64,000 bases of DNA from Solirubrobacterales bacterium. GTDB taxonomy: Bacteria > Actinomycetota > Thermoleophilia > Solirubrobacterales > 70-9. Position 1 is the first letter of the stretch. Each line of letters begins with the position of its first letter. Below, piece by piece: positions 17,466-33,060 of this stretch. The notes beneath the pieces are model-generated. The model saw only the letters and a list, made by a program, of their open reading frames with translations, made no database searches and was not told the DNA's origin. The stretch is taken from contig OZ241364.1 of NCBI GenBank assembly GCA_965200635.1, positions 990,094 to 1,054,093 of the forward strand. Reading direction: 5' to 3'. The position numbers were made by a program, and so were the translations under genes.

Positions 17466-18371
17466 CTAGGGACGCGCCGGGGTGCGGGACCCAAGAACCC
17501 GCGGCCTGACCTCGAAGGACCGATGCGCGGTCCACTCCTTGCCGACCGGCGCTTCGGAGCGGATCCGCAGGAGAACCCTGGCGTCCGGCCCTTGGCGATA
17601 GCTCGCGGGCAGGCGCAGGCGGGCGGTGGTCGGCTCACCGCGCTTGACGACGACCGGGGCCGCCCCGACGGCGCGGCCATCGGCCCACAGCTCGACCCTG
17701 CCTTTGCAGCCCTTGCTCGAGCTGTGGGCGGCCGGGACGCAGCGCAGTCGCACCACAAAGGTGCGGAATCGGCGGTGGACGCTCGGCGACGAGCCGGGGG
17801 GCCGGGGGGCCGGGGTCGATCGCAGTTGCAGCGGCGGACCGGCGGCCGCGCCCTCGAAGTAGTCCCGGCGGCGAGCGTCCGCCGGTTCGAGAACATCTTG
17901 GGGCCGGCGGAGCGAAGGACGAGCCGGGGAGCGCCGACCGAGCCGGCCGCGATCCGGACTTGGGTCCGGGTGAGCAGCTTCGGAGTTCCCGTTTCGGGAG
18001 TCGCCGCGGAGGTGCTCAGGTCGAGGGCGCCTTCGCAGGACGCGCCGGGGGCGCCATCGCAGGCGGCCCGCAGCTGCAGGGTCCCGTCCGGGCTGACCCG
18101 GGCGCCCCGGCTGAGGGCGCGTAGCTTCGGCGCCGGGCCCGCAGGGGCCCCAGCGGGCGGCGCCGCGGTGAACTCGAGCTGGGATTCGGAGGGATCGAAG
18201 CGTTCGACGCCGAGGTAGTGGGCGACGACCCGGTGCGGGCCACTCGTCAGCAGCTTGGTGGGCGCCGACGCGGCGGCGCCGTCCACTCGGCTCCGCCCCG
18301 GCGCCGGCGGGCAGAACGACGGCGGCAAGAAGCCCGATCGATACCAAGCATGCAAGGAAGCGTCGACCCAT
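17466..18371 (-). pseudogene. secreted protein gene with two apparent frameshifts
   Basis: The signal peptide (MGRRFLACLVSIGLLAAVVLPAGAGA) and the protein-like C-terminus (GRVELWADGRAVGAAPVVVKRGEP...) are in one frame. The protein-like middle (HRVVAHYLGVERFDPSESQLEF...) is in the 17441..18589 frame. Confidence 0.4.
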
Positions 18372-18408
18372 CCGTGGGTATCAGCGGCTGCGCCGTTCAA
18401 GTCAAGGG

Positions 18409-18491
18409 GCTGCTGAGACCTTCGGCTTGAAAGGACGAAGGTCTTCGGCTCTGGGAGCGGGACTGCGGCGGCGATGTGACAGGAATGAGAC
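18409..18491 (+). repeat. tRNA-Glu-like hairpin repeat TLR-A
   Basis: Contains the 17-mer GACCTTCGGCTTGAAAG (18417-18433), identical to 32990-33006 inside the tRNA gene. Perfect 8-bp stem GACCTTCG/CGAAGGTC. Shares GCGGCGGCGATGTGAC...AATGAGAC with TLR-C. Confidence 0.75.
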
Positions 18492-18625
18492 CCGGAGACC
18501 GGCCGCCATCGACTCAGCGGGACTGGCCATCTCTTTCCTTCCCATTTATCTCCTGTTAACTTCCCATATTCCCTAGAGCGATCTCCCAAATTACATAGCT
18601 AACTTTCCCAATTTGCACTACGCTC

Positions 18626-20903: not shown

Positions 20904-23834
20904 CTAGGGCGAGGAGTCGACTATCGGATCGTCCGCGCGGGCCGGGTCGCGGGCGACGAAACGCACCAAGGCTCCGTCAGGCGACCCGGTAGAGGTGGGA
21001 GCTACGAAGACGAGGGCGAAGATCACCTCGTGCGCGTCGAGGTCGGCGGTGACGGTGTCGTCGCCGGTCTCGACCATCGGGTAGAGCAGGACCGCTCCGC
21101 GGAGCGGTTTGTGAAGCTGCGCCGCGAGCTCGTCGTCGTGGTTGCCGACGCCGGCGATCTGGCCCGCGATCGGTCGGTGCTTGGGATCACTGATCGCGCC
21201 GAAAAGGCCGCCGCGGCCTTTTCGGCGGCGACGGCGGAAAACACTGAGGGTGCCGTGGCCGACGACCTCGGCGCGGGGGCCGGGGCCGACGTGCTGGGGC
21301 AGCATCACCACCCAGTCCTCGATCTGGTCGCTGCCGAGGCCCTCCAGCCAGGTCAGATCGGCGGCGAAGTGATCGTCGGGCCGCCAGCGCAGGTCTTTCA
21401 AGACCGCGAGCAGCTCCTGATGGTCGACGGTGCCGTACCGACAAGTCAAGAGGCTCCTCGCTGACGAGCCCTCCAGCTTGAAGGCTCCGTCCTTCGCCGC
21501 GGCTTTCACAAGCGGTGCGACCGCGGTCGTGTTGTGGGCGATGTCCGCAGGATCTTCCGGGTAACCGGTCGGCTCCAAGCGCTCCCCCGGGGAGCGGCGC
21601 TCCACCAGCTGTGCGTTGTACATCTTCCCGGCCGACGAGGGCTTCAGCCAGCCGAGATGCTGGGAAACGAGTGGCGGGATGTCCCGAGGAGTGATCATCG
21701 GCACCCCGTTTTTCAGCTCGCCGTAGCGCCGAATCTCCCCGCGGAACAGCTCCTCCGAACGACACGCTGCCTCGAATGCCTCGTAGAGGTCAAAGGCGCG
21801 GCCGTGACCGCCGCGATCGATGTAGAGGCGGACCAGGTCCTCGTAGCCGCTACGGAAACCGAACCAGCGACCCATCTGCATCAGGGTGTCGGCCTGTTTC
21901 GTCACTCGGCGGTAGTAGGAAACCGTCAGCCCCTCTACGGTGAACCCGCGCGAGAGCTTGGCGCCGCCGAGCAGGACCCGCCAGACCGGTCGGCTGTCGA
22001 AGTCGACCTCTTCCCGTGCCGCTTCTCTGTCCCCGTTCACAATCAGAACCGGGTCGTTGTCGGGACCCTCGATCCGGGACACCACCTCGCCGACGTACCC
22101 CTGGACGCTCTCGTAATCGGCCGGGACCGCCGCGCCGTCGCTGCGGGCCTCCATCACAGCCGCGACGTCGGAGTGAAACAGGTCGCGCAGCCGGGCATGG
22201 CCGGTGGACCCCCAGTATCCGGATCCCTTCCACGTCTCCCGCACCGCTTCGGCGAGCTGGAGGTGGTCCACCTGTTTGACCGACTCGTGGATCAGCATCG
22301 TGTGGTGTTTGAAGCGGCGCTCTTCGTTCACTTCCCGGTAGAGCTTGATCGCGCCGGTGAGGATGAACATGTCGAGCGCCTGCTGCATCACGCCCTCCAG
22401 GTCTTCCTCGTCGATCTCGCGGACGTAGGCGAGGCGCTTCGAGTTGGTAACGGTCCGCACCTCGTCCTCGGGCAGGATGTCGAGATCGTGGAACTCGACC
22501 GCGCCCATGTATCCCGGCGGCCGGTCTAGCGAGAGGATGAAACTTTTCGGGAAGAGGTCGGCGGAGTCATCGGGGTCGACGAAGACGTTGGCGAACGGCG
22601 TCGCGGTGTAGCCGACGTACTGTCCTCGCGGCAGTTTCTCGAGCAGTTCGGAGATCAGGCCGTTGATTGCCGTCCGCTTCGTCTGGCCGGCTTCCCAGTT
22701 TTTCGGGTTGGAGGTGTTCAACGAGGCCTGGTCGGACTCGTCGTCGATGATCAGCGCCGGGATGTCGCCGAGCTTCGCGGTGATCCGGTTCAGGTCCTTG
22801 ACCAACCGCGTCAGGACGCTCTTGTTCTTCTTGACGACGACGATCCGGGTCGGCACCCGGTGCAGGTTCTCCGGGGCGTTGAGTGGCTTGTCGGGATGGA
22901 GGCGCTCGAAATCGAGGGAGGAGATCCCCTGCGCCAGGCTGGCGTAGTCGCCCGCTTTGGTGGTCAGCCGGTAGATATCGGCGAATCCAAGCTCCGAGGG
23001 CAGGCCGCCGTGGCTGACGAACTCCGCGCGATCGGGATCCCCGGCGTAGTCGACGCTGCGGACCGCGTCGGGATCGTCCCGGTCGATCCCACGCATCAGG
23101 TTCTCGTCGCCGACCAGCTCCTTGTCGATTCGTCTCTGCGTCTGCCGGCGGAGCAGGTCGGTCTGCCCAGTGAGGACGATTATCAGGCGGTAGCCGGCGT
23201 CGATCGCCTTGGCGATGACACCGGTGAAGTTGGCGGTCTTCCCACTCTGGACGTAGCCGACTACCAGCCCTTTGGCCTGGTAGGCCTCTCTGCGCTCGGG
23301 GTCGCTCAAGCGCTCGACGATCCGGGTCGTGTTGAGATCAAGCGCGGCGACCGAGGTCTCATTTTCCCACTCCCTGGCGAGGTATTCGGCGTAGTGCTTC
23401 CAGTAGAAGGGCTCGCGTTCGCCCATTACCCGGCCGTACCAGGGCTCGAAGACGTCGCTGACGACCACCGACCTGTCCTCGGCCCGCGGAACGGCCTTAT
23501 CGAGGCACCCGATCAGCTCCTCGCCGAGCCCGAGCCGCTCGTAGACGAGGGCGCGGCGCTCGCCGGTTCCGGGCTTCGTCTGTCCGACCCATTCCGCCAT
23601 CGGCTCCGCGTCCCAGCCCGCGAGGGTCAGGCGAAACCTGGTCAAGAGCCGCTCCGCCGGTTCGGCCGCGACCAGGTGGGCGGCCAGGACCGAGGGCGCG
23701 GCCAACTCCGGCACATCCATCTCGTCCGCCTCGAACTCGGCCCGCCGAGCGAGGTCCGAGGGACCGCGCGTCGCCATCCCGTCGAGAGCGGATGCGTAGA
23801 TCCTGTACAGGGCCTCCGCGTTCTCAGCTGCCAA
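20904..23834 (-). CDS. Z1-domain SF2 helicase-like ATPase
   Basis: P-loop GYVQSGKTANFTG, Walker B/DExx LIIDDESDQAS. Size and order are typical of Z1 proteins that follow GHKL and PD-(D/E)XK genes. Confidence 0.8.
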   Translation of the reverse strand: MAAENAEALYRIYASALDGMATRGPSDLARRAEFEADEMDVPELAAPSVLAAHLVAAEPAERLLTRFRLTLAGWDAEPMAEWVGQTKPGTGERRALVYERLGLGEELIGCLDKAVPRAEDRSVVVSDVFEPWYGRVMGEREPFYWKHYAEYLAREWENETSVAALDLNTTRIVERLSDPERREAYQAKGLVVGYVQSGKTANFTGVIAKAIDAGYRLIIVLTGQTDLLRRQTQRRIDKELVGDENLMRGIDRDDPDAVRSVDYAGDPDRAEFVSHGGLPSELGFADIYRLTTKAGDYASLAQGISSLDFERLHPDKPLNAPENLHRVPTRIVVVKKNKSVLTRLVKDLNRITAKLGDIPALIIDDESDQASLNTSNPKNWEAGQTKRTAINGLISELLEKLPRGQYVGYTATPFANVFVDPDDSADLFPKSFILSLDRPPGYMGAVEFHDLDILPEDEVRTVTNSKRLAYVREIDEEDLEGVMQQALDMFILTGAIKLYREVNEERRFKHHTMLIHESVKQVDHLQLAEAVRETWKGSGYWGSTGHARLRDLFHSDVAAVMEARSDGAAVPADYESVQGYVGEVVSRIEGPDNDPVLIVNGDREAAREEVDFDSRPVWRVLLGGAKLSRGFTVEGLTVSYYRRVTKQADTLMQMGRWFGFRSGYEDLVRLYIDRGGHGRAFDLYEAFEAACRSEELFRGEIRRYGELKNGVPMITPRDIPPLVSQHLGWLKPSSAGKMYNAQLVERRSPGERLEPTGYPEDPADIAHNTTAVAPLVKAAAKDGAFKLEGSSARSLLTCRYGTVDHQELLAVLKDLRWRPDDHFAADLTWLEGLGSDQIEDWVVMLPQHVGPGPRAEVVGHGTLSVFRRRRRKGRGGLFGAISDPKHRPIAGQIAGVGNHDDELAAQLHKPLRGAVLLYPMVETGDDTVTADLDAHEVIFALVFVAPTSTGSPDGALVRFVARDPARADDPIVDSSP

Positions 23835-24819
23835 TGCCCGCTCCCATCAGGTCGAGTGCGGCGACGAGCTCGGGGGGCGGGCCGGAGCTCGCCGCAAAGC
23901 TCGAGACGTCGATGTCGTAGTCGACCTCACGGATCTTCGAGGTGTCGACCGGCAGACCGGTGAGCAGCGACGGGGTGATCCGGGGGAAGTCGTTCTCGAC
24001 CCGGAGCGGAAGCGGAACGGTCCGCAGCCGCCAACGATCTTTGTAGAGGTCGCGCTGGGTCTCGTTCCAGCGGACGCCGGCCAAGTTCGCAAGCACGCGC
24101 TCGTGCCCCTCCGGGCCCGCCTGGTCGAGAACGTCGTCGACCAGCTCCGACAAGGTCCGGCCCTGGTCGTCCCCACCTCGCGTTATCTGGACCGAGAGCA
24201 GCCAGAGCGCGCCTCCCGCGGTCGGCAGAAGCTGGCCGAGGCCGTGGATCCGATGCACGCGGTGCTCTCCCGCCGTCGTCTTCACCTCGACGTCAATCTC
24301 CCCGAAGCCGAAGTCATGCTCCTCCCGCAGGCCGCCCCGCCAGGCCTCCGGGCCGGCGGCTCCCGAGGCCAGAAGTGCCTCGGTCAGCAGGAGCTCTCCA
24401 AAGAGGCCGACCTCGGCTTCGACCCCGAGACGCGCTCGGGCAGAGAGGATCGATTCCCAGAGGTCCAGGGTCTCTTCGAAGGCCGCCAGCGGCCCGGCGC
24501 CGTCGAGCTGGATTCGGTCAGCGATCATCATCAGCATCGAGTAGCCGTCCGCGACCAGCTCCTCCCCCATGGTCGCGATCTCAAGGTAGCGTCGGCCGCC
24601 ATCGAAGACAGCGGCGGCGGTCACGTTCGCCAGCCGGTTCGGAGGGATCACCGCGATCTCGTCCATCGGGGCGCGGAGGGTGAGGCGGCCGGCCGGCTTA
24701 TCGATCAGCAGCCTCAGCTCGGGCTCTCCCCCGAGGCGGATCAGGACCGGCACTCCGGTCTCCCAATGTTCCTTCAAGGCCGGAAGCGAGAGACGCCTCT
24801 CGTCGCCGGTGACACTCAT
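23824..24819 (-). CDS. PD-(D/E)XK-motif nuclease-fold protein
   Basis: EHDFGFGEIDVEVKTT (D...E.K). ATGA overlap with the upstream GHKL gene and an 11-nt overlap with Z1. Confidence 0.7.
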   Translation of the reverse strand: MSVTGDERRLSLPALKEHWETGVPVLIRLGGEPELRLLIDKPAGRLTLRAPMDEIAVIPPNRLANVTAAAVFDGGRRYLEIATMGEELVADGYSMLMMIADRIQLDGAGPLAAFEETLDLWESILSARARLGVEAEVGLFGELLLTEALLASGAAGPEAWRGGLREEHDFGFGEIDVEVKTTAGEHRVHRIHGLGQLLPTAGGALWLLSVQITRGGDDQGRTLSELVDDVLDQAGPEGHERVLANLAGVRWNETQRDLYKDRWRLRTVPLPLRVENDFPRITPSLLTGLPVDTSKIREVDYDIDVSSFAASSGPPPELVAALDLMGAGIGS

Positions 24820-26333
24820 CCCAGCTCCTCTCGTGCCGCAGCGGTCAGGACCGCTTGCCAGATCTCGACGTTGTCCTTGTCCCGGGGACCCATGTTCTGT
24901 CCCGAGAAGAGCTCCTCCATCAGGAGGAACATCAGCGTCTTCACCACCGGCGAGTCATTTAGCGCCCCACGCCGTCCGCCCGCGATCGCCTTTCGGTAGC
25001 AGCTGTTCAGCCAAAGGACGTTGAGCTCGCGGTCGACTTCGAAGAACTCATCCCCCTCGAGCTCCTGCCACCTGATGTCAACCGGCTCGTCATCCCTGAT
25101 CGGGAGCTCGCGCTCAAAAGCCCGACGCACGCGCGGCGAAAATCCGGCGCCCGGCGGCATCACAGGCGAACGCCTCCGGGTTCGTCGGTTCGACGCCTTG
25201 AGCACACCGTGTGCCTCCTCGGTGTATTCCCGGAAGCCCGGCCCATCAGAGGTTTCGGCGGACCAGACGGCCCGGCTGAACTCGGCGCCGACCTCGATCC
25301 CGTTCTTCTCCGGCTTCAGGCTGACCATCCGCTCGAGGTCGCCGTCGATGTCGACCGCGACCCGCGCGAGGCTGAGCTGTTTGTCGGCGGGCACGAGGCC
25401 GTTCCATCCCCCAAGCTGAACCAGCCTGTCGTTGTAGTAAACGTAGATGCCCTGTCGCCTGATCTGATCGCTGTCGAGGCGGAAGGCATCGAGGCTGGAC
25501 CTGCCGGGCCAGATGTGACACGCAAGGTCGAGCGATGCTCGGGTGCCGGTCGCGGTCAGGGTTTTCGGCCATCCCGGGGCGCCGCTGTGCGGATAGCCGA
25601 ACGGGTCCAGCGGCTTGACCTCGACCCCCGGCAGGACCTCTTCATTGTCCACGATGTCGATCCGCACCGACATCTGCTCCGCCTCCAGGATCCGGTGGAA
25701 GACGAGGCCGATGTGGGTCCTGACCTTCGCGATCACGTCCTGAAGGAATCGCTCGACCGCGTCCTCGTCGTCGACGGCCGGAAAGCCATTGACGTCGTCC
25801 CAGCGGATCACGGTGCCGGTGCGCAGGTCCTTGATCCCCCAGTCGAGTCCCAGCGTGTCACCGGCGAAGTCCGGGGCGACGATCTGACACTCGTAGTCAC
25901 TCTTCGCCTTGTCGCTGATCCAGACCCTGCCGGTCGGCTCACCGTTCTTGCTGACCGAGATCACGGTAACGCTGCGCGCTTGGCTGAAGGAGGCCGCCTT
26001 CAACCCGAGGCCGAAGCGACCTATTTCGCCCTGCCCATAGGTCCGGTCGCCGCCGACGGTCATCGCGACGTTGATCTGCTCATCGTCCATACCGATGCCG
26101 TCGTCGACGACGAAGAGCCGACGGAGCCGGCCCGACTCCTTAACGAAGCGGATCAAGACCTCGGTCGCTTCAGCGTCAATCGAGTTGTCGACCAGCTCGG
26201 CGATGGCCGCCTCGAGGGTATGGTTCCGACCCAGCGCCTCAAGCGAGCGGGGCTCGGGGGTCAGCCGGACCGAGCCGGAGACCGGGATCGAATCGTTTGG
26301 TTCCAAGGTGCTTTCCATCGCTAGTCTCGTCAT
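24816..26333 (-). CDS. GHKL (HATPase_c_3 / MORC-like) ATPase
   Basis: N-box AELVDNSIDA, G1 box VVDDGIGMD. Start placed at MTRLAMES (26333), because the 125 upstream codons of the tracked ORF are Arg/Ser-rich and not protein-like. Confidence 0.82.
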   Translation of the reverse strand: MTRLAMESTLEPNDSIPVSGSVRLTPEPRSLEALGRNHTLEAAIAELVDNSIDAEATEVLIRFVKESGRLRRLFVVDDGIGMDDEQINVAMTVGGDRTYGQGEIGRFGLGLKAASFSQARSVTVISVSKNGEPTGRVWISDKAKSDYECQIVAPDFAGDTLGLDWGIKDLRTGTVIRWDDVNGFPAVDDEDAVERFLQDVIAKVRTHIGLVFHRILEAEQMSVRIDIVDNEEVLPGVEVKPLDPFGYPHSGAPGWPKTLTATGTRASLDLACHIWPGRSSLDAFRLDSDQIRRQGIYVYYNDRLVQLGGWNGLVPADKQLSLARVAVDIDGDLERMVSLKPEKNGIEVGAEFSRAVWSAETSDGPGFREYTEEAHGVLKASNRRTRRRSPVMPPGAGFSPRVRRAFERELPIRDDEPVDIRWQELEGDEFFEVDRELNVLWLNSCYRKAIAGGRRGALNDSPVVKTLMFLLMEELFSGQNMGPRDKDNVEIWQAVLTAAAREELG

Positions 26334-26599
26334 GGTATTGCGACGGTCGCCTGCCGCGTTTCGCCAACGCCCGCCTAACGAAGTCCTCCCGTCGTCGGGA
26401 CCGGTCCTGCCGGAGGTGGGGATGGCAGACGGTGGTGAGTCCGCTCTCATCGAGCTGTCTTCCCTCGCAGGCAGACACACCCGCGGGGATCTCCTCGTAG
26501 ACCTCGAGGTTGAAGGGCGCGCAACCGCGCAGAGTGGACCGCGGCAGTCCGATACGACGACCCTAAGGGAGGACTGGCCGCCGCTCTGCAGGCTCTTGG

Positions 26600-26683
26600 C
26601 GTGCTCGGGCGCCATACGTCTTGAGGACGAGGGGCGTTGGCTTTGAGGAGCCGCTTTGCGCCGGCGTGTAGCTGTGATGAGAC
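26600..26683 (+). repeat. tRNA-Glu-like hairpin repeat TLR-D (most diverged)
   Basis: CGTCTTGAGGACGAGGGGCGTTGGCTTTGAGGAGCCGC...GCCGGCGTGTAGCTGTGATGAGACC aligns with TLR-A and TLR-C. Lies in the 485-bp MTase/GHKL spacer. Confidence 0.55.
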
Positions 26684-26818
26684 CGGAACGGAAGCCCACC
26701 ACGCTCACCTTAAGCCGAACTTCACCTCATCAGGCGGAGACTTTGCCCGCCTACCGCAAGACACTACGAGGCGTCCCCCGGTCCGGCTGACGACGACCGA
26801 GTGAACAAGTCAATCTCT

Positions 26819-28372
26819 TTACTTTCTAGCTACCACGAGTGCCTCACGCGCACTTCCCCCCTTGACGTTCTTTGGGCGGAGATCCCGCGCAGATACGACT
26901 TCAACGTCGGAAAAGCCGATCTCGATTGCGAAGTGAGCCAGCAGAACATCGGTTAACACGGGTAGCCGCCACAACTCTTGCCAACCAGATTCTGCCTCTC
27001 CCTTTTCTCGCCTGGAGAAGGTTGAGTTGGCGACAACGCAGACCAAAAGACCCCCCGCACGAAGCAAACGGAATTGTTCCTGAAACACCTTGAACATGTC
27101 TTCAAAGTACTGGCGGACAACAACCCCATCAGCCTTCCGCCGAGCTTCCGTCGTCAGCCAATCTTCCAATCCCTCGGCTAGGTCGGTGGCACGGCTTCCA
27201 CCCTTTGGAAAATGGGCCGTTTGCGAGAACCGCACGGACGGATGACTTCTCAAGGTCCCTCTGCGAGTTGATCGGAAAGACTCCGCCGAAACGACATGCT
27301 CCATCAGCCATAGCTCCAGCTTGTAAATCTCGCTGTAGTCGATGCAATTTAGGTATGGCGGCGAGAAGAGCGATAGATCTGCCCAACCTTCCGGGAATGC
27401 AAGTTCTCCGGAGCCCAGCTCCAGCGCTCCGAGGTCTCGTGCATCTCCCGCGACGTGAAGCGCAGAGGTTTGGGCCGCCTTCCCTCGCTGGTCAGCGACC
27501 TCTTCAAGGTCAGCGATCATGGCCGACCACTGACTCGCCAAAGCATCTTTAACGGGACCCCTTGGCGATCCCTGCCCAAGCGAGCCCGCCAAAGAATTGG
27601 CACGGCGAGTTCGGCTTCTCTTGATGCGCAAAGCCCGACCATCCTTCATCGTCCCCGAAAGATCCTCGATCACTGCCGCAAGTCCGAGGAGGAAGAAGTC
27701 GATCTCAAGCTGTGACGCGCCGGGCAGCGCTCGGAGGTGGTCGCGGGCAGCTATGAGAGCTCTGAGGCGCGGGCGGGAGAACACCTCCGGCCGCGAGAGA
27801 GTCGAAAGCTCTGGAATCACGACCGTCTGCTGATGGTCATAGGCAAGAGCAGGCTCCAGGAGCGCTCTTAGTCTCAGCGTGTCTAACTGAGGCCAATTGA
27901 GCTTCGTTGCGCCGACAAAGTGTGCAAACGGCGAATACTCGACACTTCTAACCTCGCTCACTAAGTCATGTTCCATCCCAGCTAGTGCCGTGGTCCCGAC
28001 GCCGCCGAAGACGTCGGCCACTCGCAAGTTATCCGAGAGCGAAAACTCGGCGATCACGGCACTCAGCAAAGTTGGCGAAAAGCCCTCCTTGTAGGTAAAC
28101 CAACGATGGATCGGAGTGGACCGTAGATCCTCCGACCCGACCAGAGAGCCGAATACGTGCCGTCTGTCCCGGATGCGCAACTCGGACTCAAGCTCCGAAC
28201 TCGCCTTCCGCAACCTATGCCAGCGAAGCAAATCGACTTTGCCATCCGGTCTGCTCCACCCGTCGTCAGTCCTTGCCAGCATTGGCTCGACAGCGACTCC
28301 ATGATGACGGCCCTCATCGTCCCACGCAGACTCGGAAAATGGTCCCCCTCTCTCTTGCTCGACCTCGCTCAT
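26819..28372 (-). CDS. DNA amino-methyltransferase (N6-A or N4-C), alpha-type motif order
   Basis: Motif I VADVFGGVGTTA is about 225 aa upstream of motif IV FSPPYLNCIDY. One of the most AT-rich-looking coding stretches in the window. Confidence 0.82.
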   Translation of the reverse strand: MSEVEQERGGPFSESAWDDEGRHHGVAVEPMLARTDDGWSRPDGKVDLLRWHRLRKASSELESELRIRDRRHVFGSLVGSEDLRSTPIHRWFTYKEGFSPTLLSAVIAEFSLSDNLRVADVFGGVGTTALAGMEHDLVSEVRSVEYSPFAHFVGATKLNWPQLDTLRLRALLEPALAYDHQQTVVIPELSTLSRPEVFSRPRLRALIAARDHLRALPGASQLEIDFFLLGLAAVIEDLSGTMKDGRALRIKRSRTRRANSLAGSLGQGSPRGPVKDALASQWSAMIADLEEVADQRGKAAQTSALHVAGDARDLGALELGSGELAFPEGWADLSLFSPPYLNCIDYSEIYKLELWLMEHVVSAESFRSTRRGTLRSHPSVRFSQTAHFPKGGSRATDLAEGLEDWLTTEARRKADGVVVRQYFEDMFKVFQEQFRLLRAGGLLVCVVANSTFSRREKGEAESGWQELWRLPVLTDVLLAHFAIEIGFSDVEVVSARDLRPKNVKGGSAREALVVARK

Positions 28373-28555
28373 AGGTTCAGAGCCGGAGGCGCATGCCTAG
28401 CGCGCCCCGCGAGGTCATCCCGATATCGCATCGAGGGCTCTCGGAGCCTGAGAGATCGACGACGAAGATAGCCTCCCACAGCGAGGCAGCACCCTCCGGA
28501 TCGCCGGGATCTTTCACGCAGGGGAGGCGTCGCGTGGCTCGGACTAACAGCATGG

Positions 28556-29623
28556 CTAGCCAGCGAGAAGCTTCGGCTCAAGCCAGAATCGGCGGGGCTC
28601 ACGGAAATCCGAACGCTCGGCCTCATAGTCGGGGTTGTATTCGATCTCCGCGTCGCGGAACGCAACGGCGTCGTCGTCCGAGATCTCAGCGGGCACCGCT
28701 TTGACGTTGGCTCGGCGGGCGTCGTAGACGACCAAGTAGCCCTCAGTCTCAAGATCTGGCGTTCGCTGCTTGTTCTCCTCCAGATAATCGGCGAGCTGCT
28801 TTGCGCCCGCTCTCGGACGAGCCGGAGCGCCATACGAGGTCGCAAGCTCGGTGCCATCAGTGCTAACGCTCTGTCCAAGCCACTTGATCTCGATCAGCGA
28901 GAGCTGGGCGGAAAGACTCCATTTGACCTTGATATCGATGGGCTGGGTCTCGCTGACGTTCTGCTCCTCTCTGACTTCTGCGTGATCGCGAAGGGTAGTT
29001 TCGAGGTGCTGAGCCAAGGACCCGCGCATGATCTTCTCCGGTTTGTTGACCAGAAAAACATGGCGACTGTCATGCCATGCTTGGCGCAGGAGGTGACAGG
29101 TCGACCAGCGAGCCTGCTCCCGTTCGTAATAGTCGAGCGCTTTGGCGAGTGCAAAAAAGGTCGGAGGGGCGATCGCACTTGGATGACCATTGGGGTTTCG
29201 GACCGTTTGGAAGGTGCCTTCGATCAGAAAGAACTCGCCACTCTCGCGCCAGAGATAGACGACTGCACTTTCGTCGAAACCCTTGAGAGTCGCTTTTTCC
29301 GGCACCCCGGGCCAGGCCCACAAGGTGCCGTTGGGCATCACCTGGACAACACCACCTCCGCCGACAACCTCAGCAAGAGCCTCGGCGTTGGTCTCAATCC
29401 CCTCATCTTCCCAATCGAGCGGATCTCCATCGACAGTCGCCAGGACGGTGAGGCCGCCGCCGAACTCCTCAGCTGACCGATGCCGATAAATACGCCGAAC
29501 GGCGATTAAGAGCTCCTTGAGCCGATCGGCCCCGGCGCTACCGTGTTGGCGGACGATGCGGGGCGTGAAGATTTCCTCGATAATTTGCCGCATCTCGTCA
29601 GGATCGAACTTCGGCTCGCTCAC
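28556..29623 (-). CDS. predicted PD-(D/E)XK nuclease-fold effector of the ABC-3C-like triad
   Basis: E..TQPIDIKVKW-x9-SLIEIKWL (D...E.K). GTGA overlap with the preceding gene. Confidence 0.55.
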   Translation of the reverse strand: MSEPKFDPDEMRQIIEEIFTPRIVRQHGSAGADRLKELLIAVRRIYRHRSAEEFGGGLTVLATVDGDPLDWEDEGIETNAEALAEVVGGGGVVQVMPNGTLWAWPGVPEKATLKGFDESAVVYLWRESGEFFLIEGTFQTVRNPNGHPSAIAPPTFFALAKALDYYEREQARWSTCHLLRQAWHDSRHVFLVNKPEKIMRGSLAQHLETTLRDHAEVREEQNVSETQPIDIKVKWSLSAQLSLIEIKWLGQSVSTDGTELATSYGAPARPRAGAKQLADYLEENKQRTPDLETEGYLVVYDARRANVKAVPAEISDDDAVAFRDAEIEYNPDYEAERSDFREPRRFWLEPKLLAG

Positions 29624-30228
29624 ACCACCTCCGCCTCCTCGGGCAGACGACGGGCCAGATAGGTGAGCCAGACCACAGCAGGAACCATCAAGTCGTCTGC
29701 TGCGTCATCACCCGCGAGCGCCTCATTGAGCGCGTCAAATTGGCTCTCCAACAGTGCGAGACCAGCCTCATCGAGAAGTTCCTGGGTCCTTACGAAGCGC
29801 AGCGCCCGCCGAAGGCCCGGCTCTCGACCGAGCGCTCCGGCAAGCGACGGGAGCGGCATTGCAAGGGCGGCGCCGGCGGCGGCGTCGAGGTAGGGAAGCC
29901 GACGAGCGTTGAGCTGCATCTCGCTGATTTGGCCAAGGTCAGCGCGACCGAGATCGGTGATCGTCCAAACCTCCTCGCCACGCTCAATCAAGCCGCTGTT
30001 GCGGGCGCGGTTCTGAGCCTTCGAGAGGTAGTAGGAAAAAGGCGCACCGGTCCGGGTAGCCGTGAATTTGTAGCCCCACCACTCCGGCCGGCGGCCGTCA
30101 AAAACAGCAAGCAGGCAAGCGAGATAGGCGAGAGTCTGAAGCTCGCCGTCGGTCATTCCCGCTGAGGCCTCCGTCTGCATCGCCGCGATCTGGAGAAGGT
30201 CAAATTCGGCGAGCGCCTGCTCGCTCAC
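29620..30228 (-). CDS. small helical protein in the 'middle component' position of an ABC-3C-like triad
   Basis: 202 aa with no catalytic motif. GTGA overlaps on both sides tie it to the ATPase and the nuclease genes. Confidence 0.45.
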   Translation of the reverse strand: MSEQALAEFDLLQIAAMQTEASAGMTDGELQTLAYLACLLAVFDGRRPEWWGYKFTATRTGAPFSYYLSKAQNRARNSGLIERGEEVWTITDLGRADLGQISEMQLNARRLPYLDAAAGAALAMPLPSLAGALGREPGLRRALRFVRTQELLDEAGLALLESQFDALNEALAGDDAADDLMVPAVVWLTYLARRLPEEAEVV

Positions 30229-32192
30229 TGGGCGGCCCCGAGTTTCTGCTCGATCGCCGCGTACGCCCTCTCGAAGAGCTCCTCGTGTCCTTGCTGAACC
30301 TCGGTCAGATAGGTCCAGCTGGTCATCCTCACCAGCTTCATCCGTTTGTCGCCGCAGCGCTCGGCTAGGCGAAGCAGTAGCTCGGAGGTGTTGATGTTTG
30401 CGGTCATGAGCAGCTGACCGCCACCTTCGACGAAGCTCGCGAACATCTCCCCTGCCTGATTCTCGTAGGCGATGTCGAGCGAGCCCTCGGGGGTGTCCAC
30501 GTAGAGGAACGCACCTCCCGATGCCGCCCCTAGCCTCTCTGCCAGTGCCATACGAAGCGCGATGTCAAGAAAGAACCGTTGGCTCTCAGAGAGCTCGTCG
30601 GGAGATCGGCGATCGGATTGCGCGAGAACCAGACGCAGGCGCAGTTTCGAAGAATGGATCTCCAGATCTATTTCCAGCTCAATCCCAAGAAAGAGATGGG
30701 CCAGCTCTTGAAAGCGAGGGACAAATTCATCCTCAACCGCCGCATAGGCCTCCATCAACTCCGCGTGGAGCACCGAGACGGCGGCTTTTGCCTCTTCGCG
30801 ACGCTCGCGCTCGCGGGCTTTGCGCTCCATCAGTTGGGCAATCTGGTTGCGAAGGCCGGCGGTCGCGCTATCCACTCCGAAGTCTTCGACCGAGCGACGA
30901 GCCAGAGCTAGTGAATTTGCCTTCTTGAAGCCGTCGAGCTGGGCCGTTGACTCGCGAAGAGCGCGGTCGGCGTCATCCGCTTCGGTACGCAGTCGCGACA
31001 CTGCGCCCTGCTGGACCTCAAGATCGCCCTCAAGGGCCACAATCCTCTCCGAGCTCTCGGCTATCTCGGCAATCAGTGCCGCATCCTCATCGGCGCTCTC
31101 GGCGGGGAGGTCAGACCCGCACAGAGGACAGAAGCCCTCTTTGAGGCGACCGGCGACCTCGGAAGCTACCTCGGGGCCGTTCGCACCGCAGATTCCACAG
31201 GACCCGCGGTCCACTGCGTCCACGACTATTGGGTGTGAATGCGTATGACGTCGCGTTTTGAGTCGGTCGGCGAAGAGTCGGTCATAACGCGCCTGCTCAG
31301 CACGCATCTTGGCGCCGGAGTCGGCCAGTCGGACTTGAGCGTCGCGCCAGTCCGTTTCGAGCCTCTCGAAATGGTCTGCACAGTCTTCGAGACGTTCCTC
31401 CAGTCGTTTGTGCTCATGCTGCAGGTCTTGGTCTCCAGCATCTTTCCCGCTGATTGCCCGTTCGAGCGCCTCTAGTTCGCGACGCACGCCAGTGGCCTGC
31501 CACTGGAGGTTTCGGACCAGCGAGTCAGCCGAGTCGATCCTTTTCTGCTGGCGCTCCAGCTGGCTCGTCTGATCGGCGGAGATTCCAAAAGCCAGATAGA
31601 GGGCGGTTTCCGCAACCCGCTCGTCCCAGAACAGCAGACGGCGCTCCTCGTCGAACGTAAGTACCAGCAGCTGCAGAAAGACCAGCTGGGAGAAATCGTC
31701 AAGACCGGTGTCAGCCAGGACGGCTTTTTCGTAGGCGCGGTGGCGCTGCGCATCATCAAAGGCAGAGTCGTCGTAGGTCGTTACTTGGCCGTCCGGCTCC
31801 GTGATTTCGAGCTCTCGCAAGCCCTGAGTCGCAAACATGCCGCGCACGATGCGATAGGCGCGCTCCCCAATTGTCATCTCTAACGCGACTTGGGCGGCGC
31901 CGTGGTCCTCCGAACTGATCCGTCCGGAGAAGTAGGTGGAGGAATAAGAAAGGAGGTCTTCGTAGTAGCTGCCGTACCGAACAAAGTTTTTCTCTGCCTC
32001 GGCCACGACACCGCAGATACCGAAGTTGATCGCCGAGAGAAAGGTTGACTTCCCGAGCCCGTTAGCTCCTGCGAGACAGAAGACGGGCTTGTCGAAGTCG
32101 GCCTCTACCCGTTTGGTTCGGGCGTAGAGAGAGAACTGTTCGAGCACAACGCGGGTTGGCTTGGGCATCCGTAGTCCGGTCGTTCCGCTCAC
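30225..32192 (-). CDS. Rad50/SMC-like ABC ATPase with coiled-coil insert carrying a CxxC-x19-CxxC zinc ribbon
   Basis: Walker A GANGLGKST, signature LSESQRF, Walker B/D-loop FLYVDTPEGSLD. CGICG...CPLCG sits inside a heptad-rich middle region. The start may be the Met at 32168. Confidence 0.82.
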   Translation of the reverse strand: MSGTTGLRMPKPTRVVLEQFSLYARTKRVEADFDKPVFCLAGANGLGKSTFLSAINFGICGVVAEAEKNFVRYGSYYEDLLSYSSTYFSGRISSEDHGAAQVALEMTIGERAYRIVRGMFATQGLRELEITEPDGQVTTYDDSAFDDAQRHRAYEKAVLADTGLDDFSQLVFLQLLVLTFDEERRLLFWDERVAETALYLAFGISADQTSQLERQQKRIDSADSLVRNLQWQATGVRRELEALERAISGKDAGDQDLQHEHKRLEERLEDCADHFERLETDWRDAQVRLADSGAKMRAEQARYDRLFADRLKTRRHTHSHPIVVDAVDRGSCGICGANGPEVASEVAGRLKEGFCPLCGSDLPAESADEDAALIAEIAESSERIVALEGDLEVQQGAVSRLRTEADDADRALRESTAQLDGFKKANSLALARRSVEDFGVDSATAGLRNQIAQLMERKARERERREEAKAAVSVLHAELMEAYAAVEDEFVPRFQELAHLFLGIELEIDLEIHSSKLRLRLVLAQSDRRSPDELSESQRFFLDIALRMALAERLGAASGGAFLYVDTPEGSLDIAYENQAGEMFASFVEGGGQLLMTANINTSELLLRLAERCGDKRMKLVRMTSWTYLTEVQQGHEELFERAYAAIEQKLGAAQ

Positions 32193-32369: not shown

Positions 32370-32945
32370 CTAGCCGATCTCCTGCCGTACGACCTTGTAG
32401 CCGCCGCCCATCGCATGGACGTAGCGAGCGAGCATCGTCTCGACCCGATGCCCCGCTATTTCGGCAAGATCGGCATCGTTGACGCCGGCGGCGCGTAGGT
32501 GGGTGACGTACGAGTGGCGGCACTCATGAGGGCGAATATCGAGACCGGAGGCTTGCTGGGCCGGACCCCAGACATCCCGATAGAAGTTTCGCTCGCGCCA
32601 CATCCGACTTCACGGAGTCGTGAAAATGAACTCGCAGGTTGGGCCATTGAGGTTGATTTCTGCTTCGAGCATCCAGGCGAGGGTCGCGGGAACCGGGACG
32701 ACGCGGCCGGCGCCCTCCTCGCCGTGGTCCGTCTTGGTGCCCTCCAGGATCGTCCCCTCGTGGGCCGATCGGTGAGCTGGCGAAGCTCTCCGAGAAGGTC
32801 GGATAGAAGCGACCGTAGGTCTCAGAAAAAGCGACGAGGATGAGACGGAGACTCTCCGGAACGGACCGGAACCGAGTGGACTCCACCGGAACGCATCGGC
32901 GACCCGCAACCGAAGACTTGGCTCTGCACCGGACAATCCCGGCAC
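32370..32945 (-). pseudogene. tyrosine recombinase (phage-type integrase) remnant, N-terminally truncated and frameshifted
   Basis: The C-terminal catalytic region RPHECRHSYVTHL...MLARYVH (32370-32603) is in one frame. The box-I-like GTKTDHGEEGAGRVVPVPATL is in another frame (32610-32945). Only about 20 nt separate it from the tRNA 3' end. Confidence 0.72.
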
Positions 32946-32964: not shown

Positions 32965-33060
32965 TGCGCCCGACCAGATTCGAACTGGCGACCTTCGGCT
33001 TGAAAGACCGACGCTCTTTGGGCCCCCGGAGGGACCCGTTGACCGCTGAGCTACGGGCGC
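32965..33060 (-). tRNA. tRNA-Glu(UUC) with an insertion of about 24 nt in the D-loop (96 nt; functional status uncertain)
   Basis: Manual cloverleaf: acceptor GCGCCCG/CGGGCGC, D-stem GCTC/GAGC, anticodon arm TCGGT-CTTTCAA-GCCGA, variable loop AGGTC, T-arm GCCAG-TTCGAAT-CTGGT. The D-loop is 31 nt and includes the hairpin GGGTCCCTCCGGGGGCCC. No encoded CCA. Confidence 0.65.

What the first reader, a model, noticed from the sequence alone, without database searches (positions are those of the whole stretch)
28556..32192. ABC-3C-like triad: Rad50/SMC-type ABC ATPase with a zinc ribbon in its coiled coil, a small helical protein, and a PD-(D/E)XK effector, all translationally coupled
Three minus-strand genes are joined by GTGA stop/start overlaps at 30225-30228 and 29620-29623.
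- Gene 1 (655 aa) has Walker A GANGLGKST, a long heptad-rich insert containing CGIC-x19-CPLC, ABC signature LSESQRF, and Walker B/D-loop LYVDTPEGSLD.
- Gene 2 (202 aa) has no catalytic motif.
- Gene 3 (355 aa) carries PIDIKV...LIEIKW, a restriction-endonuclease-fold signature.

The ATPase / middle / effector order matches the computationally defined ABC-three-component conflict systems. As far as I know these have no experimentally established mechanism. Here the triad sits in a tRNA-linked island directly upstream of a DNA methyltransferase, which would make it a methylation-gated variant.
Basis: partly seen in the sequence, partly recalled or inferred. Interest (0 to 1): 0.82.

Follow-up and report, generated by a model that had tools for sequence, protein, structure and literature searches.

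The report
SMC-like ATPase, nuclease and methyltransferase cassette
The three overlapping genes are real, but they are part of a conserved four-gene unit that always includes the neighbouring DNA methyltransferase, so this is most likely an undescribed restriction-modification-like defence system built around a Lamassu-type SMC-like ATPase.

Summary
Three minus-strand genes (655, 202 and 355 aa) are joined by GTGA overlaps, and every quoted motif is present and invariant across homologues.

- **Unit size.** In 85 related loci from more than ten phyla, the ATPase / ~200-aa / nuclease order never changes. A homologous SPPY amino-methyltransferase is directly adjacent in nearly all of them (median gap 2 bp), in four different positions and orientations. 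The unit is therefore four genes, window 26819-32192.
- **ATPase.** It has short-LmuB features: about 650 aa, two CxxC motifs at the coiled-coil tip, and Walker B hhhhD-T with no catalytic Glu.
- **Middle protein and nuclease.** Neither matches any ABC-3C/Lamassu MC, CTD, LmuA or LmuC model. Gene order is the reverse of Lamassu, and the nuclease domain is C-terminal.
- **Nuclease fold.** The 355-aa protein has a confident alpha-beta-beta-beta-alpha-beta core with invariant E, D, ExK and QxxxY.
- **Outdated claim.** ABC-3C/Lamassu now has cryo-EM-based mechanisms.

Best reading: a methylation-protected restriction system gated by an ATP-binding SMC-like clamp. I found no published description. 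Function is inferred, not shown.

The parts
30225..32192 (-). Gene 1: SMC/Rad50-like coiled-coil ABC ATPase (655 aa), short-LmuB-like. The start may instead be ATG at 32168.
   Evidence: Pfam AAA_23 9.6e-10 and SMC_N. PADLOC LmuB PDLC03859 5.6e-18 over residues 26-578. All 47 family members hit that model, best 4.8e-32. Profile against PDB: Rad50 and SMC heads.
32043..32069 (-). Walker A, GANGLGKST (residues 42-50)
   Evidence: Invariant G42-A-N-G-x-G-K48-S-T50 in 47 homologues.
31119..31199 (-). Coiled-coil apex with four cysteines: CGIC-x19-CPLCG (residues 332-358). This is either two CxxC 'zinc-hook' copies or one zinc ribbon.
   Evidence: C332, C335, C355, P356 and C358 are invariant. Weak profile matches to the Rad50 hook (1l8d, 6zff) and to HP0958 (3na7), which I recall as a coiled coil with a zinc ribbon. 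Short LmuB proteins carry 0-2 CxxC copies.
30579..30593 (-). ABC signature motif LSESQ (residues 534-538)
   Evidence: S535-E-S-Q538 is invariant. It aligns with LSGGQ of SMC.
30474..30506 (-). Walker B / D-loop LYVD-TPEGSLD (residues 563-573). The catalytic Glu position is Thr.
   Evidence: D566-T-P-E-G-S-L-D573 is invariant. It aligns with DEvDaaLD of SMC. Short Lamassu LmuB has hhhhD[Q/S/T/E].
30384..30407 (-). H-loop position MTANINTS (residues 596-603). Asn599 sits where ABC ATPases have the H-loop His. This is inferred from spacing and motif shape.
   Evidence: N599, N601 and S603 are invariant. D566 to N599 is 33 residues, which I recall as the Walker B to H-loop spacing in Rad50 and BtuD (my own knowledge, not tested here).
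29620..30228 (-). Gene 2: 202-aa helical 'middle' protein with a winged-helix-like N-terminal half
   Evidence: AF2 pLDDT 93.1, pTM 0.91. Foldseek gives only weak matches to PadR/MarR-type wHTH proteins. Weak wHTH-type Pfam hits in some members, and no ABC-3C MC family. The family has 426 representatives at 50% identity.
28556..29623 (-). Gene 3: 355-aa two-domain protein. Variable N-terminal domain (long helix plus beta domain, residues 1-~190) and a conserved C-terminal nuclease domain.
   Evidence: AF2 pLDDT 92.8. Conservation profile: N-terminal 0.22-0.42, C-terminal 0.5-0.73. No Pfam, NCBIfam or PADLOC family.
28712..29050 (-). PD-(D/E)XK nuclease core (residues 192-304): alpha1, beta1 (E220), beta2 (PxD230), beta3 (E245-x-K247), alpha2 (Q276-xxx-Y280), beta4 (D301)
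   Evidence: Invariant residues mapped onto the model's alpha-beta-beta-beta-alpha-beta topology. The recognisable nucleases among the Foldseek matches are restriction-fold proteins: SfsA, Nt.BspD6I, R.SwaI and Hjc in PDB; PD-(D/E)XK proteins, Holliday-junction resolvases and REases in BFVD. E-values run from 1e-3 to 1e-1, and unrelated proteins such as CdaA also appear in the PDB list.
26819..28372 (-). Gene 4: DNA amino-methyltransferase (517 aa from the first start; a 487-aa form on record would start at 28282). Motif I DVFGGVGT (27992-28015) precedes motif IV SPPY (27353-27364).
   Evidence: PADLOC MTase_II PDLC03224 2.6e-33. 25% identity, E 2e-22 to the P. aeruginosa cassette MTase. Homologues hit Pfam N6_N4_Mtase in permuted order. 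SPPY in 79 of 80. Adjacent to the triad in nearly all loci.
32965..33060 (-). Context: tRNA-like gene at the island edge (aberrant D-arm region)
   Evidence: ARAGORN 96 nt with undetermined anticodon. Rfam tRNA 36.6 bits over 32965-33032, with mismatched acceptor pairs.
32371..32780 (-). Context: remnant of a tyrosine recombinase (C-terminal catalytic half only, with an in-frame stop)
   Evidence: Translation shows ...HECRHSYVTHL...GHRVETMLARYVH... preceded by a TGA stop.

Best explanation
The triad and the adjacent methyltransferase form one four-gene defence system that uses restriction-modification logic.

**Proposed roles.**
- The SPPY amino-methyltransferase marks host DNA. It has its own variable middle region and is often separately oriented, so it can probably act and be expressed on its own.
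- The other three proteins are made in fixed proportion from overlapping genes and form a complex.
- That complex is a dimer of the short coiled-coil, LmuB-like ABC ATPase, held at its apex by the four-Cys zinc module.
- The ~200-aa winged-helix/helical protein sits at the ATPase heads.
- The 355-aa protein is held through its variable N-terminal domain.

**ATPase behaviour.** The ATPase lacks the Walker B catalytic Glu (Thr instead) and probably the H-loop His (Asn instead). It is therefore more likely an ATP-binding, DNA-clamping switch than a motor.

**Action.** Engagement with invading DNA would license or release the C-terminal PD-(D/E)XK nuclease. Methylated host DNA is spared and unmethylated DNA is cut.

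**What is shown.** Gene content, conservation, motifs, folds and obligatory MTase linkage.

**What is inferred.** Complex formation, which step reads methylation, the trigger, and the defence phenotype itself.
For: 1. **Obligatory MTase.** In 80 genome loci plus 5 Pseudomonas/Enterobacter loci, the order g1-g2-g3 is invariant. A homologous MTase (E 1e-100 to 1e-160) is adjacent in four arrangements. Among the 62 complete cassettes the counts are 38 downstream same strand, 11 upstream same strand, 8 upstream divergent and 5 downstream convergent. The median gap is 2 bp, and 76 of 81 gaps are under 300 bp.
2. **Exceptions fit the pattern.** The one intact triad without it (L034) has a different DPPY N6_N4 MTase directly after g3. 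The MTase-less L011 is a decayed remnant with a truncated ATPase.
3. **The neighbouring genes are separate.** The HATPase and DUF4420 genes next to the window's MTase occur in none of the other 85 loci.
4. **Nuclease.** Invariant E220, D230, E245-x-K247, Q276-xxx-Y280 and D301 sit on a confident alpha-beta-beta-beta-alpha-beta core. Foldseek matches include several restriction-fold nucleases.
5. **ATPase.** Walker A, signature motif, four Cys and D-T-P-E-G-S-L-D are invariant. All 47 homologues hit PADLOC LmuB. Size, two CxxC motifs and hhhhD-T match the published description of short LmuB.
6. **Translational coupling.** It is seen across the family.
7. **Co-variation (suggestive only).** Partial rank correlations of pairwise identities: g2 with ATPase heads 0.50; g3 N-terminal domain with the coiled coil 0.45; nuclease domain with MTase 0.39; g3 N-terminal domain with MTase 0.07.
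8. **Context.** The cassette sits beside defence and mobile genes. Window: Mza-like trio, PDC-S01, HNH, tRNA/integrase edge. Enterobacter: a QatB-family gene with KAP NTPase, QueC-like and TatD genes. P. aeruginosa: integrase, transposase, SymE, MazG plus helicase. L011: a TIR protein.
9. **Spread.** A patchy distribution over more than ten phyla fits horizontal spread.
Against: - No experiment exists. Defence, methylation and cleavage are all untested.
- Nothing shows which component reads the methyl mark or any DNA sequence. The variable N-terminal domain of the nuclease does not co-vary with the MTase (0.07), so it is probably not a matching target-recognition domain.
- Foldseek E-values for the nuclease are weak (>= 1e-3), and sequence profiles find no solved relative.
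- The LmuB resemblance is modest: 63 bits for the window protein. Solved Lamassu structures were not among the 60 listed PDB profile matches (108 matched at E <= 1).
- Known Lamassu systems work by abortive infection without any MTase, so the Lamassu analogy may mislead.
- The co-variation analysis can be confounded by shared ancestry and by recombination of adjacent DNA. The 3' half of g3 and the MTase are neighbours in most loci.
Confidence: 0.55

Rival explanations
1. Lamassu-style abortive infection. The ATPase/middle-protein complex sequesters the nuclease and releases it on sensing phage DNA ends or replication intermediates. The released nuclease then degrades DNA indiscriminately and kills the cell. 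On this view the MTase is not a self/non-self mark. It acts as a safety device that blunts leaky nuclease activity, or as an epigenetic regulator of the operon.
For: The ATPase has short-LmuB features and its best PADLOC model is LmuB. The published Lamassu mechanism is sequestration followed by release and oligomerisation. The non-catalytic Walker B fits a one-way switch. The g3 N-terminal domain co-varies with the coiled coil, as a sequestered domain would.
Against: In the papers read here, Lamassu systems are described without a methyltransferase, whereas here it is obligatory. A suicide system gains little from protecting host DNA. Gene order and effector domain order are the reverse of Lamassu, and there is no LmuA, LmuC, MC or CTD homology.
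Confidence: 0.2
2. BREX-, Dnd- or MADS-like system. The ATPase complex is needed for the modification reaction itself, or for both modification and restriction. The MTase would then be inactive on its own, and restriction need not be simple cleavage of unmodified sites.
For: The N-terminal head of the ATPase matches DndD and PbeC (E 1e-13 to 1e-14). All 47 homologues match the C-terminal part of MADS mad3. MADS is a methylation-based multi-gene system with complex genetic dependencies between its genes.
Against: The MTase is frequently on the opposite strand or on the far side of the triad. It has a full catalytic domain with its own variable insert. In L034 it appears to have been replaced by an unrelated MTase. 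All three points argue for autonomy. No Dnd, Pbe, BREX or other MADS components are present.
Confidence: 0.12
3. Chance neighbourhood. The triad is an ordinary ABC-3C/Lamassu system, and the MTase belongs to the downstream HATPase / DUF4420 / Z1 (Mza-like) genes.
For: In the window the MTase lies between the two gene sets. Mza-like genes usually accompany a methyltransferase (my own knowledge).
Against: The census in 85 loci shows the MTase travels with the triad and the Mza-like genes do not. The cassette MTases of Pseudomonas and Enterobacter are homologous to the window's.
Confidence: 0.02
4. Housekeeping DNA repair complex of the SbcCD / Rad50-Mre11 or RecN type.
For: Weak profile similarity of the ATPase to Rad50, SbcC and SMC.
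Against: All NCBIfam scores are far below the family cut-offs (for example sbcc 16 bits against 478). There is no Mre11/SbcD partner. The distribution is patchy, inside a low-GC island next to a tRNA and an integrase remnant. An MTase is obligatory.
Confidence: 0.02

Closest known systems
Short (type II) Lamassu / ABC-3C systems (LmuA-LmuC-LmuB; DdmABC)
   Same: Three co-translated proteins: a ~650-aa Rad50-like ABC ATPase with short coiled coils, a small middle protein and a nuclease-type effector. Walker B is of the hhhhD[Q/S/T/E] type and there are CxxC motifs at the apex (two here; 0-2 in short LmuB). LmuB is the best PADLOC model for all 47 ATPase homologues.
   Different: Gene order is reversed (ATPase first). 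The nuclease domain is C-terminal rather than N-terminal. No member matches any Pfam MC or CTD family, and the window proteins match no PADLOC LmuA or LmuC model. No solved LmuB is among the 60 listed PDB matches. An adjacent DNA methyltransferase is obligatory, which the Lamassu papers read here do not report.
Classical restriction-modification systems, including NTP-dependent ones such as Type I/III and the Dcm + McrBC-like PcaRCI
   Same: A DNA amino-methyltransferase is tightly linked to a PD-(D/E)XK nuclease in tandem, divergent and convergent arrangements. The cassette lies in mobile defence islands. PcaRCI (PMC8989522) is a precedent for a restriction enzyme with McrBC-like components paired with an MTase.
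   Different: The nuclease comes with an SMC/Rad50-like coiled-coil ABC ATPase and a winged-helix adaptor. It has no SF2 helicase (Type I/III) and no AAA+ GTPase (McrB). There is no specificity subunit. The nuclease and middle proteins are absent from Pfam, NCBIfam and PADLOC.
MADS (methylation-associated defence system, mad1-8)
   Same: Methylation-based self/non-self logic with several accessory genes. The C-terminal head of the ATPase matches the mad3 model in all 47 homologues (best 6.9e-18), and the MTase weakly matches mad2.
   Different: MADS is an eight-gene operon with kinase, specificity and other components, and mad6-8 are its mandatory markers. None of those is present here, and genes 2 and 3 hit no mads model.
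Dnd / Pbe systems (DndD, PbeC SMC-like ATPases)
   Same: An SMC-like ATPase of ~650 aa in a DNA-modification-based defence system. N-terminal head similarity at E 1e-13 to 1e-14.
   Different: No sulfur-modification genes. The similarity is limited to the first ~80 residues. The modification enzyme here is a methyltransferase.
Wadjet (JetABCD)
   Same: An SMC-type ATPase plus winged-helix partner(s) plus a nuclease directed against foreign DNA.
   Different: JetC matches only 3 of 47 homologues. Wadjet has long hinge-type SMC arms, a kleisin plus a KITE pair, a Toprim nuclease and no MTase.
SbcCD / Rad50-Mre11
   Same: A coiled-coil ABC ATPase with a Cys-based apex, partnered with a nuclease. 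Lamassu is proposed to derive from SbcCD.
   Different: Much shorter arms, non-catalytic Walker B, a PD-(D/E)XK nuclease instead of the Mre11/SbcD partner, island location and MTase linkage.

Membership tests
Lamassu / ABC-3C | LmuB-type SMC-like ABC ATPase (short coiled coil, Walker A, non-canonical Walker B, 0-2 CxxC) | tested here: met
   655 aa; invariant GxxGxGKST; hhhhD-T; CGIC and CPLCG. All 47 of 47 homologues hit PADLOC LmuB PDLC03859. Placement inside the LmuB clade by phylogeny was not tested.
Lamassu / ABC-3C | Middle component belonging to the LmuC / ABC-3C MC families | tested here: not met
   None of 69 homologues hits an MC Pfam family at E <= 1. The window protein has no PADLOC hit at E <= 0.01. 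Only position and size are analogous.
Lamassu / ABC-3C | Effector with an N-terminal effector domain and a conserved C-terminal docking domain (CTD families) | tested here: not met
   The nuclease core is C-terminal (residues 192-304) and the N-terminal domain is the variable one. No CTD Pfam hit in 77 homologues. No PADLOC LmuA hit for the window protein.
Lamassu / ABC-3C | Operon order effector - middle - ATPase | tested here: not met
   The order is ATPase - middle - nuclease in all 85 loci.
Lamassu / ABC-3C | Abortive-infection activation by DNA ends or replication intermediates | not testable with these tools
   Needs infection assays.
Restriction-modification system (broad sense) | DNA methyltransferase genetically linked to a nuclease | tested here: met
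   SPPY / N6_N4-type MTase adjacent in nearly all loci, median gap 2 bp. PD-(D/E)XK core in g3.
Restriction-modification system (broad sense) | Methylation of a defined motif protects DNA from the cognate nuclease | not testable with these tools
   Needs methylome sequencing and cleavage or plating assays.
PD-(D/E)XK nuclease superfamily (gene 3) | alpha-beta-beta-beta-alpha-beta core with D...(D/E)xK on strands 2 and 3 | tested here: met
   AF2 pLDDT 92.8. H196-210, E215-219, E231-235, E240-253, H268-287, E292-301, with D230 and E245-x-K247 invariant. Foldseek support is weak but includes several restriction-fold nucleases.
MADS | mad6, mad7 and mad8 present (the mandatory markers) | tested here: not met
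   Only partial mad3-like and weak mad2-like matches. The markers are defined.
Dnd / Pbe | DndD/PbeC together with sulfur-modification genes | tested here: not met
   The similarity is confined to the N-terminal head. No such genes appear in the window or in related loci.
MZA system (for the neighbouring genes and the MTase) | MTase co-inherited with MzaB/C/D-like genes | tested here: not met
   MzaB-, MzaD- and MzaC-like genes lie next to the MTase only in the window and in none of the other 85 loci.
SbcCD / Rad50-Mre11 | Equivalog-level match plus an SbcD/Mre11 partner | tested here: not met
   NCBIfam sbcc scores 16 bits against a cut-off of 478, and Rad50 28 bits against 1000. No SbcD/Mre11-type partner gene is adjacent.

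The most novel reading that the evidence does not exclude
This would be a previously unrecognised class of restriction-modification system. A Lamassu-derived, hydrolysis-poor SMC-like clamp, with a winged-helix adaptor, replaces the helicase or translocase of Type I/III enzymes and gates a PD-(D/E)XK nuclease. A dedicated N4C/N6A methyltransferase turns what is elsewhere a suicidal (abortive) sensor-effector machine into a non-suicidal one that spares self DNA.
Probability: 0.35. Interest if true: 0.8.

Novelty: new variant of a known kind. Interest (0 to 1): 0.66.

Why it matters
**For the field.** SMC-like defence systems (Lamassu, Wadjet) and methylation-based systems (R-M, BREX, DISARM, MADS) have so far been treated as separate solutions. 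A compact four-gene cassette that joins them would show how an abortive sensor-effector machine can be made safe for the host by adding a self-mark. It would also offer a small, tractable system for asking how an SMC-like clamp licenses a nuclease.

**For annotation.** Two of the four proteins are absent from Pfam, NCBIfam and PADLOC. Current tools therefore see only an 'AAA family ATPase', an orphan Type II methyltransferase and two hypothetical proteins. Such loci are probably mis-scored as orphan MTases.

**For experiments.** The cassette occurs in workable organisms: P. aeruginosa (the nuclease protein is indexed in 135 blocks of the contig collection), Enterobacter, Photorhabdus and Streptomyces.

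Tried and rejected
- **Family searches for genes 2 and 3.** Pfam, NCBIfam and PADLOC returned nothing. Scanning all 69 and 77 homologues one by one gave only sub-threshold wHTH and PDDEXK hints.
- **Profiles against solved structures.** No match for the nuclease, and noise for the middle protein.
- **Foldseek (PDB and BFVD).** No match at E <= 0.001. It is usable only as fold-class evidence.
- **Exhaustive profile search with the middle protein.** It returned a compact family of 426 representatives. Only the best 150 are listed, so no bridge to LmuC or MC families could be examined.
- **MADS as the identity of the system.** Rejected: MADS has eight genes and different mandatory markers.
- **PcaRCI.** Rejected: it is Dcm plus an McrBC-like enzyme.
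- **Named systems in recent discovery papers.** Dionysus, Ophion, Ambrosia and six Streptomyces systems (Ceres, Geb, Veles, Prithvi, Ukko, Oshun). For the first three, the descriptions read do not fit this cassette. For the Streptomyces systems I saw no description that fits, but I did not read their architectures in full.
- **Original ABC-3C paper.** Krishnan et al. 2020 is not held in the library. Its definitions were taken second-hand from papers that cite it.
- **Other collections.** No match in plasmids, phages or E. coli genomes.
- **Signals and boundaries.** The promoter/terminator scan was uninformative in this GC-rich DNA. No direct repeat of the tRNA 3' end marks the far island boundary.
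- **Source organism.** It could not be named.

Full report
**1. Observation**

Both junctions are GTGA, a GTG start overlapping a TGA stop. The quoted motifs are all present.

These genes are real. Each protein has about 100-200 homologues at 30-90% identity in public genomes and metagenomes. In alignments, the quoted residues are the invariant ones.
- ATPase: Walker A, C332/C335/C355/C358, S-E-S-Q and D566-T-P-E-G-S-L-D573.
- 355-aa protein: E220, D230, E245, K247, Q276, Y280 and D301.

A -4 overlap is also the most common junction in the family.

Two small corrections:
- The start of gene 1 could be ATG at 32168, since the exact 655-aa product is not on record.
- The 'Walker B' lacks the catalytic Glu.

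**2. The real unit has four genes**

The decisive result came from gene neighbourhoods.

In P. aeruginosa, the nuclease homologue is indexed in 135 blocks of the contig collection. There and in Enterobacter asburiae the cassette is N6_N4-type methyltransferase (445 aa), then SMC-like ATPase (661 aa), then ~201 aa, then ~370 aa. That methyltransferase is homologous over its whole length to the window's 26819-28372 gene (25% identity, E 2e-22).

I then fetched 80 loci from one-genome-per-species contigs and scored all ORFs with iteratively built HMMs.
- The ATPase / ~200-aa / nuclease order is invariant.
- A cassette-type MTase (E 1e-100 to 1e-160) is adjacent wherever the contig allows.
- Among 62 complete cassettes the MTase is downstream on the same strand in 38, upstream on the same strand in 11, upstream divergent in 8 and downstream convergent in 5.
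- The median gap is 2 bp, and 76 of 81 gaps are below 300 bp.

The apparent exceptions are informative.
- L034 has a different, DPPY-type N6_N4 MTase directly after the nuclease gene.
- L011 is a decayed remnant with a truncated ATPase next to an IS110 transposase.
- L075 and L078 are fragmented in all four genes.
- The most divergent variants (Paenibacillus, Prevotella, Clostridium, Lachnospiraceae) keep a 199-226-aa middle ORF that my HMM did not recognise.

The HATPase_c_3 and DUF4420 genes downstream of the window's MTase occur in none of the other loci. The MTase therefore belongs with the triad, not with them.

The hosts span Actinomycetota, Acidobacteriota, Chloroflexota, Planctomycetota, several proteobacterial classes, Myxococcota, Bacteroidota, Bacillota, Melainabacteria, Armatimonadota, Campylobacterota and others. 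This is the patchy spread typical of mobile defence genes.

The family is not large: 426 representatives at 50% identity among 1.84 billion proteins for the middle protein. I found no copy in plasmids, phage genomes or complete E. coli genomes, and three in IMG/VR contigs.

**3. The four proteins**

*ATPase.* Pfam AAA_23 and SMC_N match it. NCBIfam gives only far-sub-threshold matches to SMC, Rad50, SbcC and DndD.

The best PADLOC model is LmuB PDLC03859, aligned over residues 26-578 (5.6e-18). All 47 homologues hit it (best 4.8e-32). All 47 also hit the C-terminal part of MADS mad3. DndD and PbeC similarity is confined to the first ~80 residues.

A family profile against solved structures finds Rad50 and SMC heads, coiled-coil proteins, weakly the Rad50 hook, and HP0958. 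No solved Lamassu protein is among the 60 matches listed, out of 108 at E <= 1.

The alignment to SMC places D566-T567 opposite the Walker B D-E. The catalytic Glu is therefore replaced by an invariant Thr. By spacing (33 residues) and motif shape (MTAN against xxSH), the H-loop His is replaced by an invariant Asn599. That last point is my inference from known Rad50 and BtuD numbering.

A 2025 survey describes short LmuB as follows: about 600 aa, Walker B hhhhD[Q/S/T/E], and zero, one or two CxxC motifs (10.1101/2025.04.02.646746). An earlier review gives ~650 aa, ~20-nm coiled coils and a CPxCG hook (PMC10586767). Gene 1 fits this description: 655 aa, hhhhD-T, and CGIC plus CPLCG.

*Middle protein.* AF2 gives a confident model (pLDDT 93, pTM 0.91). 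It has a winged-helix-like N-terminal half followed by a helical bundle. Foldseek gives only weak matches to PadR/MarR-type wHTH proteins. No homologue hits an ABC-3C MC Pfam family.

*Nuclease.* AF2 pLDDT is 92.8. The protein has two parts:
- A variable N-terminal part: a 40-residue helix followed by a beta domain.
- A conserved C-terminal alpha-beta-beta-beta-alpha-beta core. It carries E220 at the end of strand 1, PxD230 at strand 2, E245-x-K247 on strand 3, Q276-xxx-Y280 on the following helix and D301 on strand 4.

That is the canonical PD-(D/E)XK arrangement. The QxxxY motif, as I recall, is typical of RecB/Cas4-like members.

Foldseek E-values are weak (1e-3 to 1e-1). The recognisable nucleases among the matches are SfsA, Nt.BspD6I, R.SwaI, Hjc, viral PD-(D/E)XK proteins, Holliday-junction resolvases and restriction endonucleases. 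Unrelated proteins such as CdaA also appear in the PDB list. I take the fold as supported.

*Methyltransferase.* PADLOC MTase_II matches it at 2.6e-33. Homologues match Pfam N6_N4_Mtase in permuted order: motif I (DPFxGSGT) comes first, then a variable insert, then motif IV. Motif IV is SPPY in 79 of 80. From general knowledge this leans towards N4-cytosine methylation but does not exclude N6-adenine.

**4. How it probably works**

The conserved pairing of an apparently autonomous DNA MTase with a nuclease, in every orientation, is the genetic signature of restriction-modification.

The three overlapping genes imply a stoichiometric complex.

The ATPase's missing catalytic residues argue for an ATP-binding, DNA-clamping switch rather than a translocase. 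The same has been argued for LmuB.

For Lamassu itself the published model is that LmuB2-LmuC sequesters monomeric LmuA. DNA ends or replication origins then trigger its release, and it forms an active nuclease tetramer. I propose the same kind of gating here, with the addition that host DNA is protected by methylation.

A mirror-tree-style analysis on 62 complete cassettes gave the following partial rank correlations of pairwise identities.

| Pair | Partial correlation | Permutations (of 500) reaching it |
|---|---|---|
| Middle protein / ATPase heads | 0.50 | 0 |
| Nuclease N-terminal domain / coiled coil | 0.45 | 0 |
| Nuclease catalytic domain / MTase | 0.39 | 0 |
| Nuclease N-terminal domain / MTase | 0.07 | 53 |

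This fits a picture with three elements:
- The adaptor sits at the heads.
- The nuclease docks on the coiled coil through its N-terminal domain.
- The catalytic domain, not the N-terminal domain, is functionally tied to the modification.

It is suggestive only. Shared ancestry, and recombination of adjacent DNA (the 3' half of g3 and the MTase are neighbours in most loci), can produce such signals.

**5. Rivals**

- **Lamassu-style abortive infection, with the MTase as a safety device (0.2).** It is consistent with the ATPase features, but it explains the obligatory MTase poorly.
- **BREX/Dnd/MADS-like dependence of modification on the ATPase complex (0.12).** It is supported by the DndD/PbeC/mad3 similarities. 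The separately oriented MTase, and its replacement by a different MTase in L034, count against it.
- **Chance adjacency, with the MTase serving the Mza-like genes (0.02).** Refuted by the census.
- **Housekeeping repair (0.02).** Contradicted by the scores, the island location and the distribution.

**6. Comparison with what is known**

The system works most like a hybrid of short Lamassu and an R-M system. It is not a member of Lamassu/ABC-3C as currently defined.

Of the four testable defining features, only the ATPase type is met. Middle-component family, effector architecture and operon order are not met.

ABC-3C is now subsumed in the Lamassu superfamily, which has structures and an activation model.

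MADS, Dnd/Pbe, Wadjet, SbcCD and the MZA system were each considered and fail their defining features (see the membership table).

**7. Novelty**

Seven full-text searches and eleven papers turned up no description of this four-gene cassette. NCBIfam (June 2026), Pfam and PADLOC v2 have no model for two of its proteins.

The Lamassu survey mentions deep-branching LmuB-homologue clades of unknown function. This family may be one of them.

I could not read the original ABC-3C paper, so a passing mention there cannot be excluded.

I rate it a new variant of a known kind. Both the R-M logic and the SMC-like sensor are known; their fixed combination, and the two new protein families, are not.

**8. 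Context in the window**

The cassette sits in a lower-GC stretch (about 58-68% against ~70% in the flanks). This stretch runs from purK/purE (9405-11092) to a tRNA-like gene (32965-33060), which has a tyrosine-recombinase remnant beside it.

The island also carries:
- an HNH protein,
- two radical-SAM genes,
- a PDC-S01 ATPase,
- an MzaB/MzaD/MzaC-like trio.

**Verdict.** The finding is more interesting than a 'variant ABC-3C', because the methyltransferase link is a conserved property of a widespread, uncharacterised four-gene family. All functional statements remain inference. Interest 0.66.

Noticed in passing
window 20904-26708 (-): Directly downstream of the cassette MTase lie three Mza-like genes. 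These are HATPase_c_3/MzaB-like (24816-26708, real start probably near 26333), DUF4420/MzaD-like (23824-24819) and Z1/MzaC-like (20904-23834, 976 aa). They have no methyltransferase of their own and no AIPR-like gene. They might be an independent module, or they might exploit the cassette's MTase. They are absent from all 85 related loci.
   Followed up: partly
window 32965-33060 (-): The tRNA-like gene at the island edge is abnormal. ARAGORN needs 96 nt and cannot name the anticodon. Rfam matches only 32965-33032, with mismatched acceptor pairs. By eye, a normal acceptor/D-arm 5' half is separated from the rest by a ~24-nt insertion in the D-loop region. No repeat of its 3' end was found elsewhere in the window.
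   Followed up: partly
window 32371-32780 (-): Only the C-terminal catalytic half of a tyrosine recombinase remains (HxxRHS...GH...Y motifs). It is interrupted by an in-frame TGA, so the island is probably no longer mobile.
   Followed up: partly
window 11115-19870: The rest of the lower-GC island holds an HNH endonuclease-like gene (11115-12071), two adjacent radical-SAM genes (13132-14586 and 14571-15764; the first weakly pVip-like, 6e-8), two unassigned ORFs, and a PDC-S01 (AAA_14 + DUF4143) ATPase (18626-19870, 3e-153).
   Followed up: partly
L036 6277-14390 (Kofleriaceae MAG): Two triads lie tail to tail around a single cassette-type MTase. One is complete on the + strand. The second is divergent, on the - strand (g3' 11372-12607, a 219-aa middle ORF, and g1' cut by the contig end), with the MTase (10110-11609) in its 'downstream' position. 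Either two nuclease modules share one MTase or one has lost its own.
   Followed up: partly
L034 10117-11278 (Armatimonadota MAG): An intact triad is followed not by the usual SPPY MTase but by a shorter DPPY N6_N4_Mtase ORF, possibly split over two ORFs. An IS110 transposase lies upstream. This looks like non-orthologous replacement of the methyltransferase.
   Followed up: partly
L005 10509-15095 and L001 11023-17110: Neighbours of the cassette in other hosts are themselves defence-type genes. In Enterobacter these are a QatB-family gene with KAP NTPase, QueC-like and TatD genes. In P. aeruginosa they are a SLFN-like helicase plus MazG, SymE, and a 2098-aa kinase/DUF4011/AAA_11-12 protein.
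   Followed up: no
window 26819-28372 and related loci: The cassette MTases match Pfam N6_N4_Mtase as a circular permutation: the N-terminus matches model positions ~150-220 and the C-terminus matches positions 1-110. The window's copy has a non-conserved ~80-aa N-terminal extension.
   Followed up: partly
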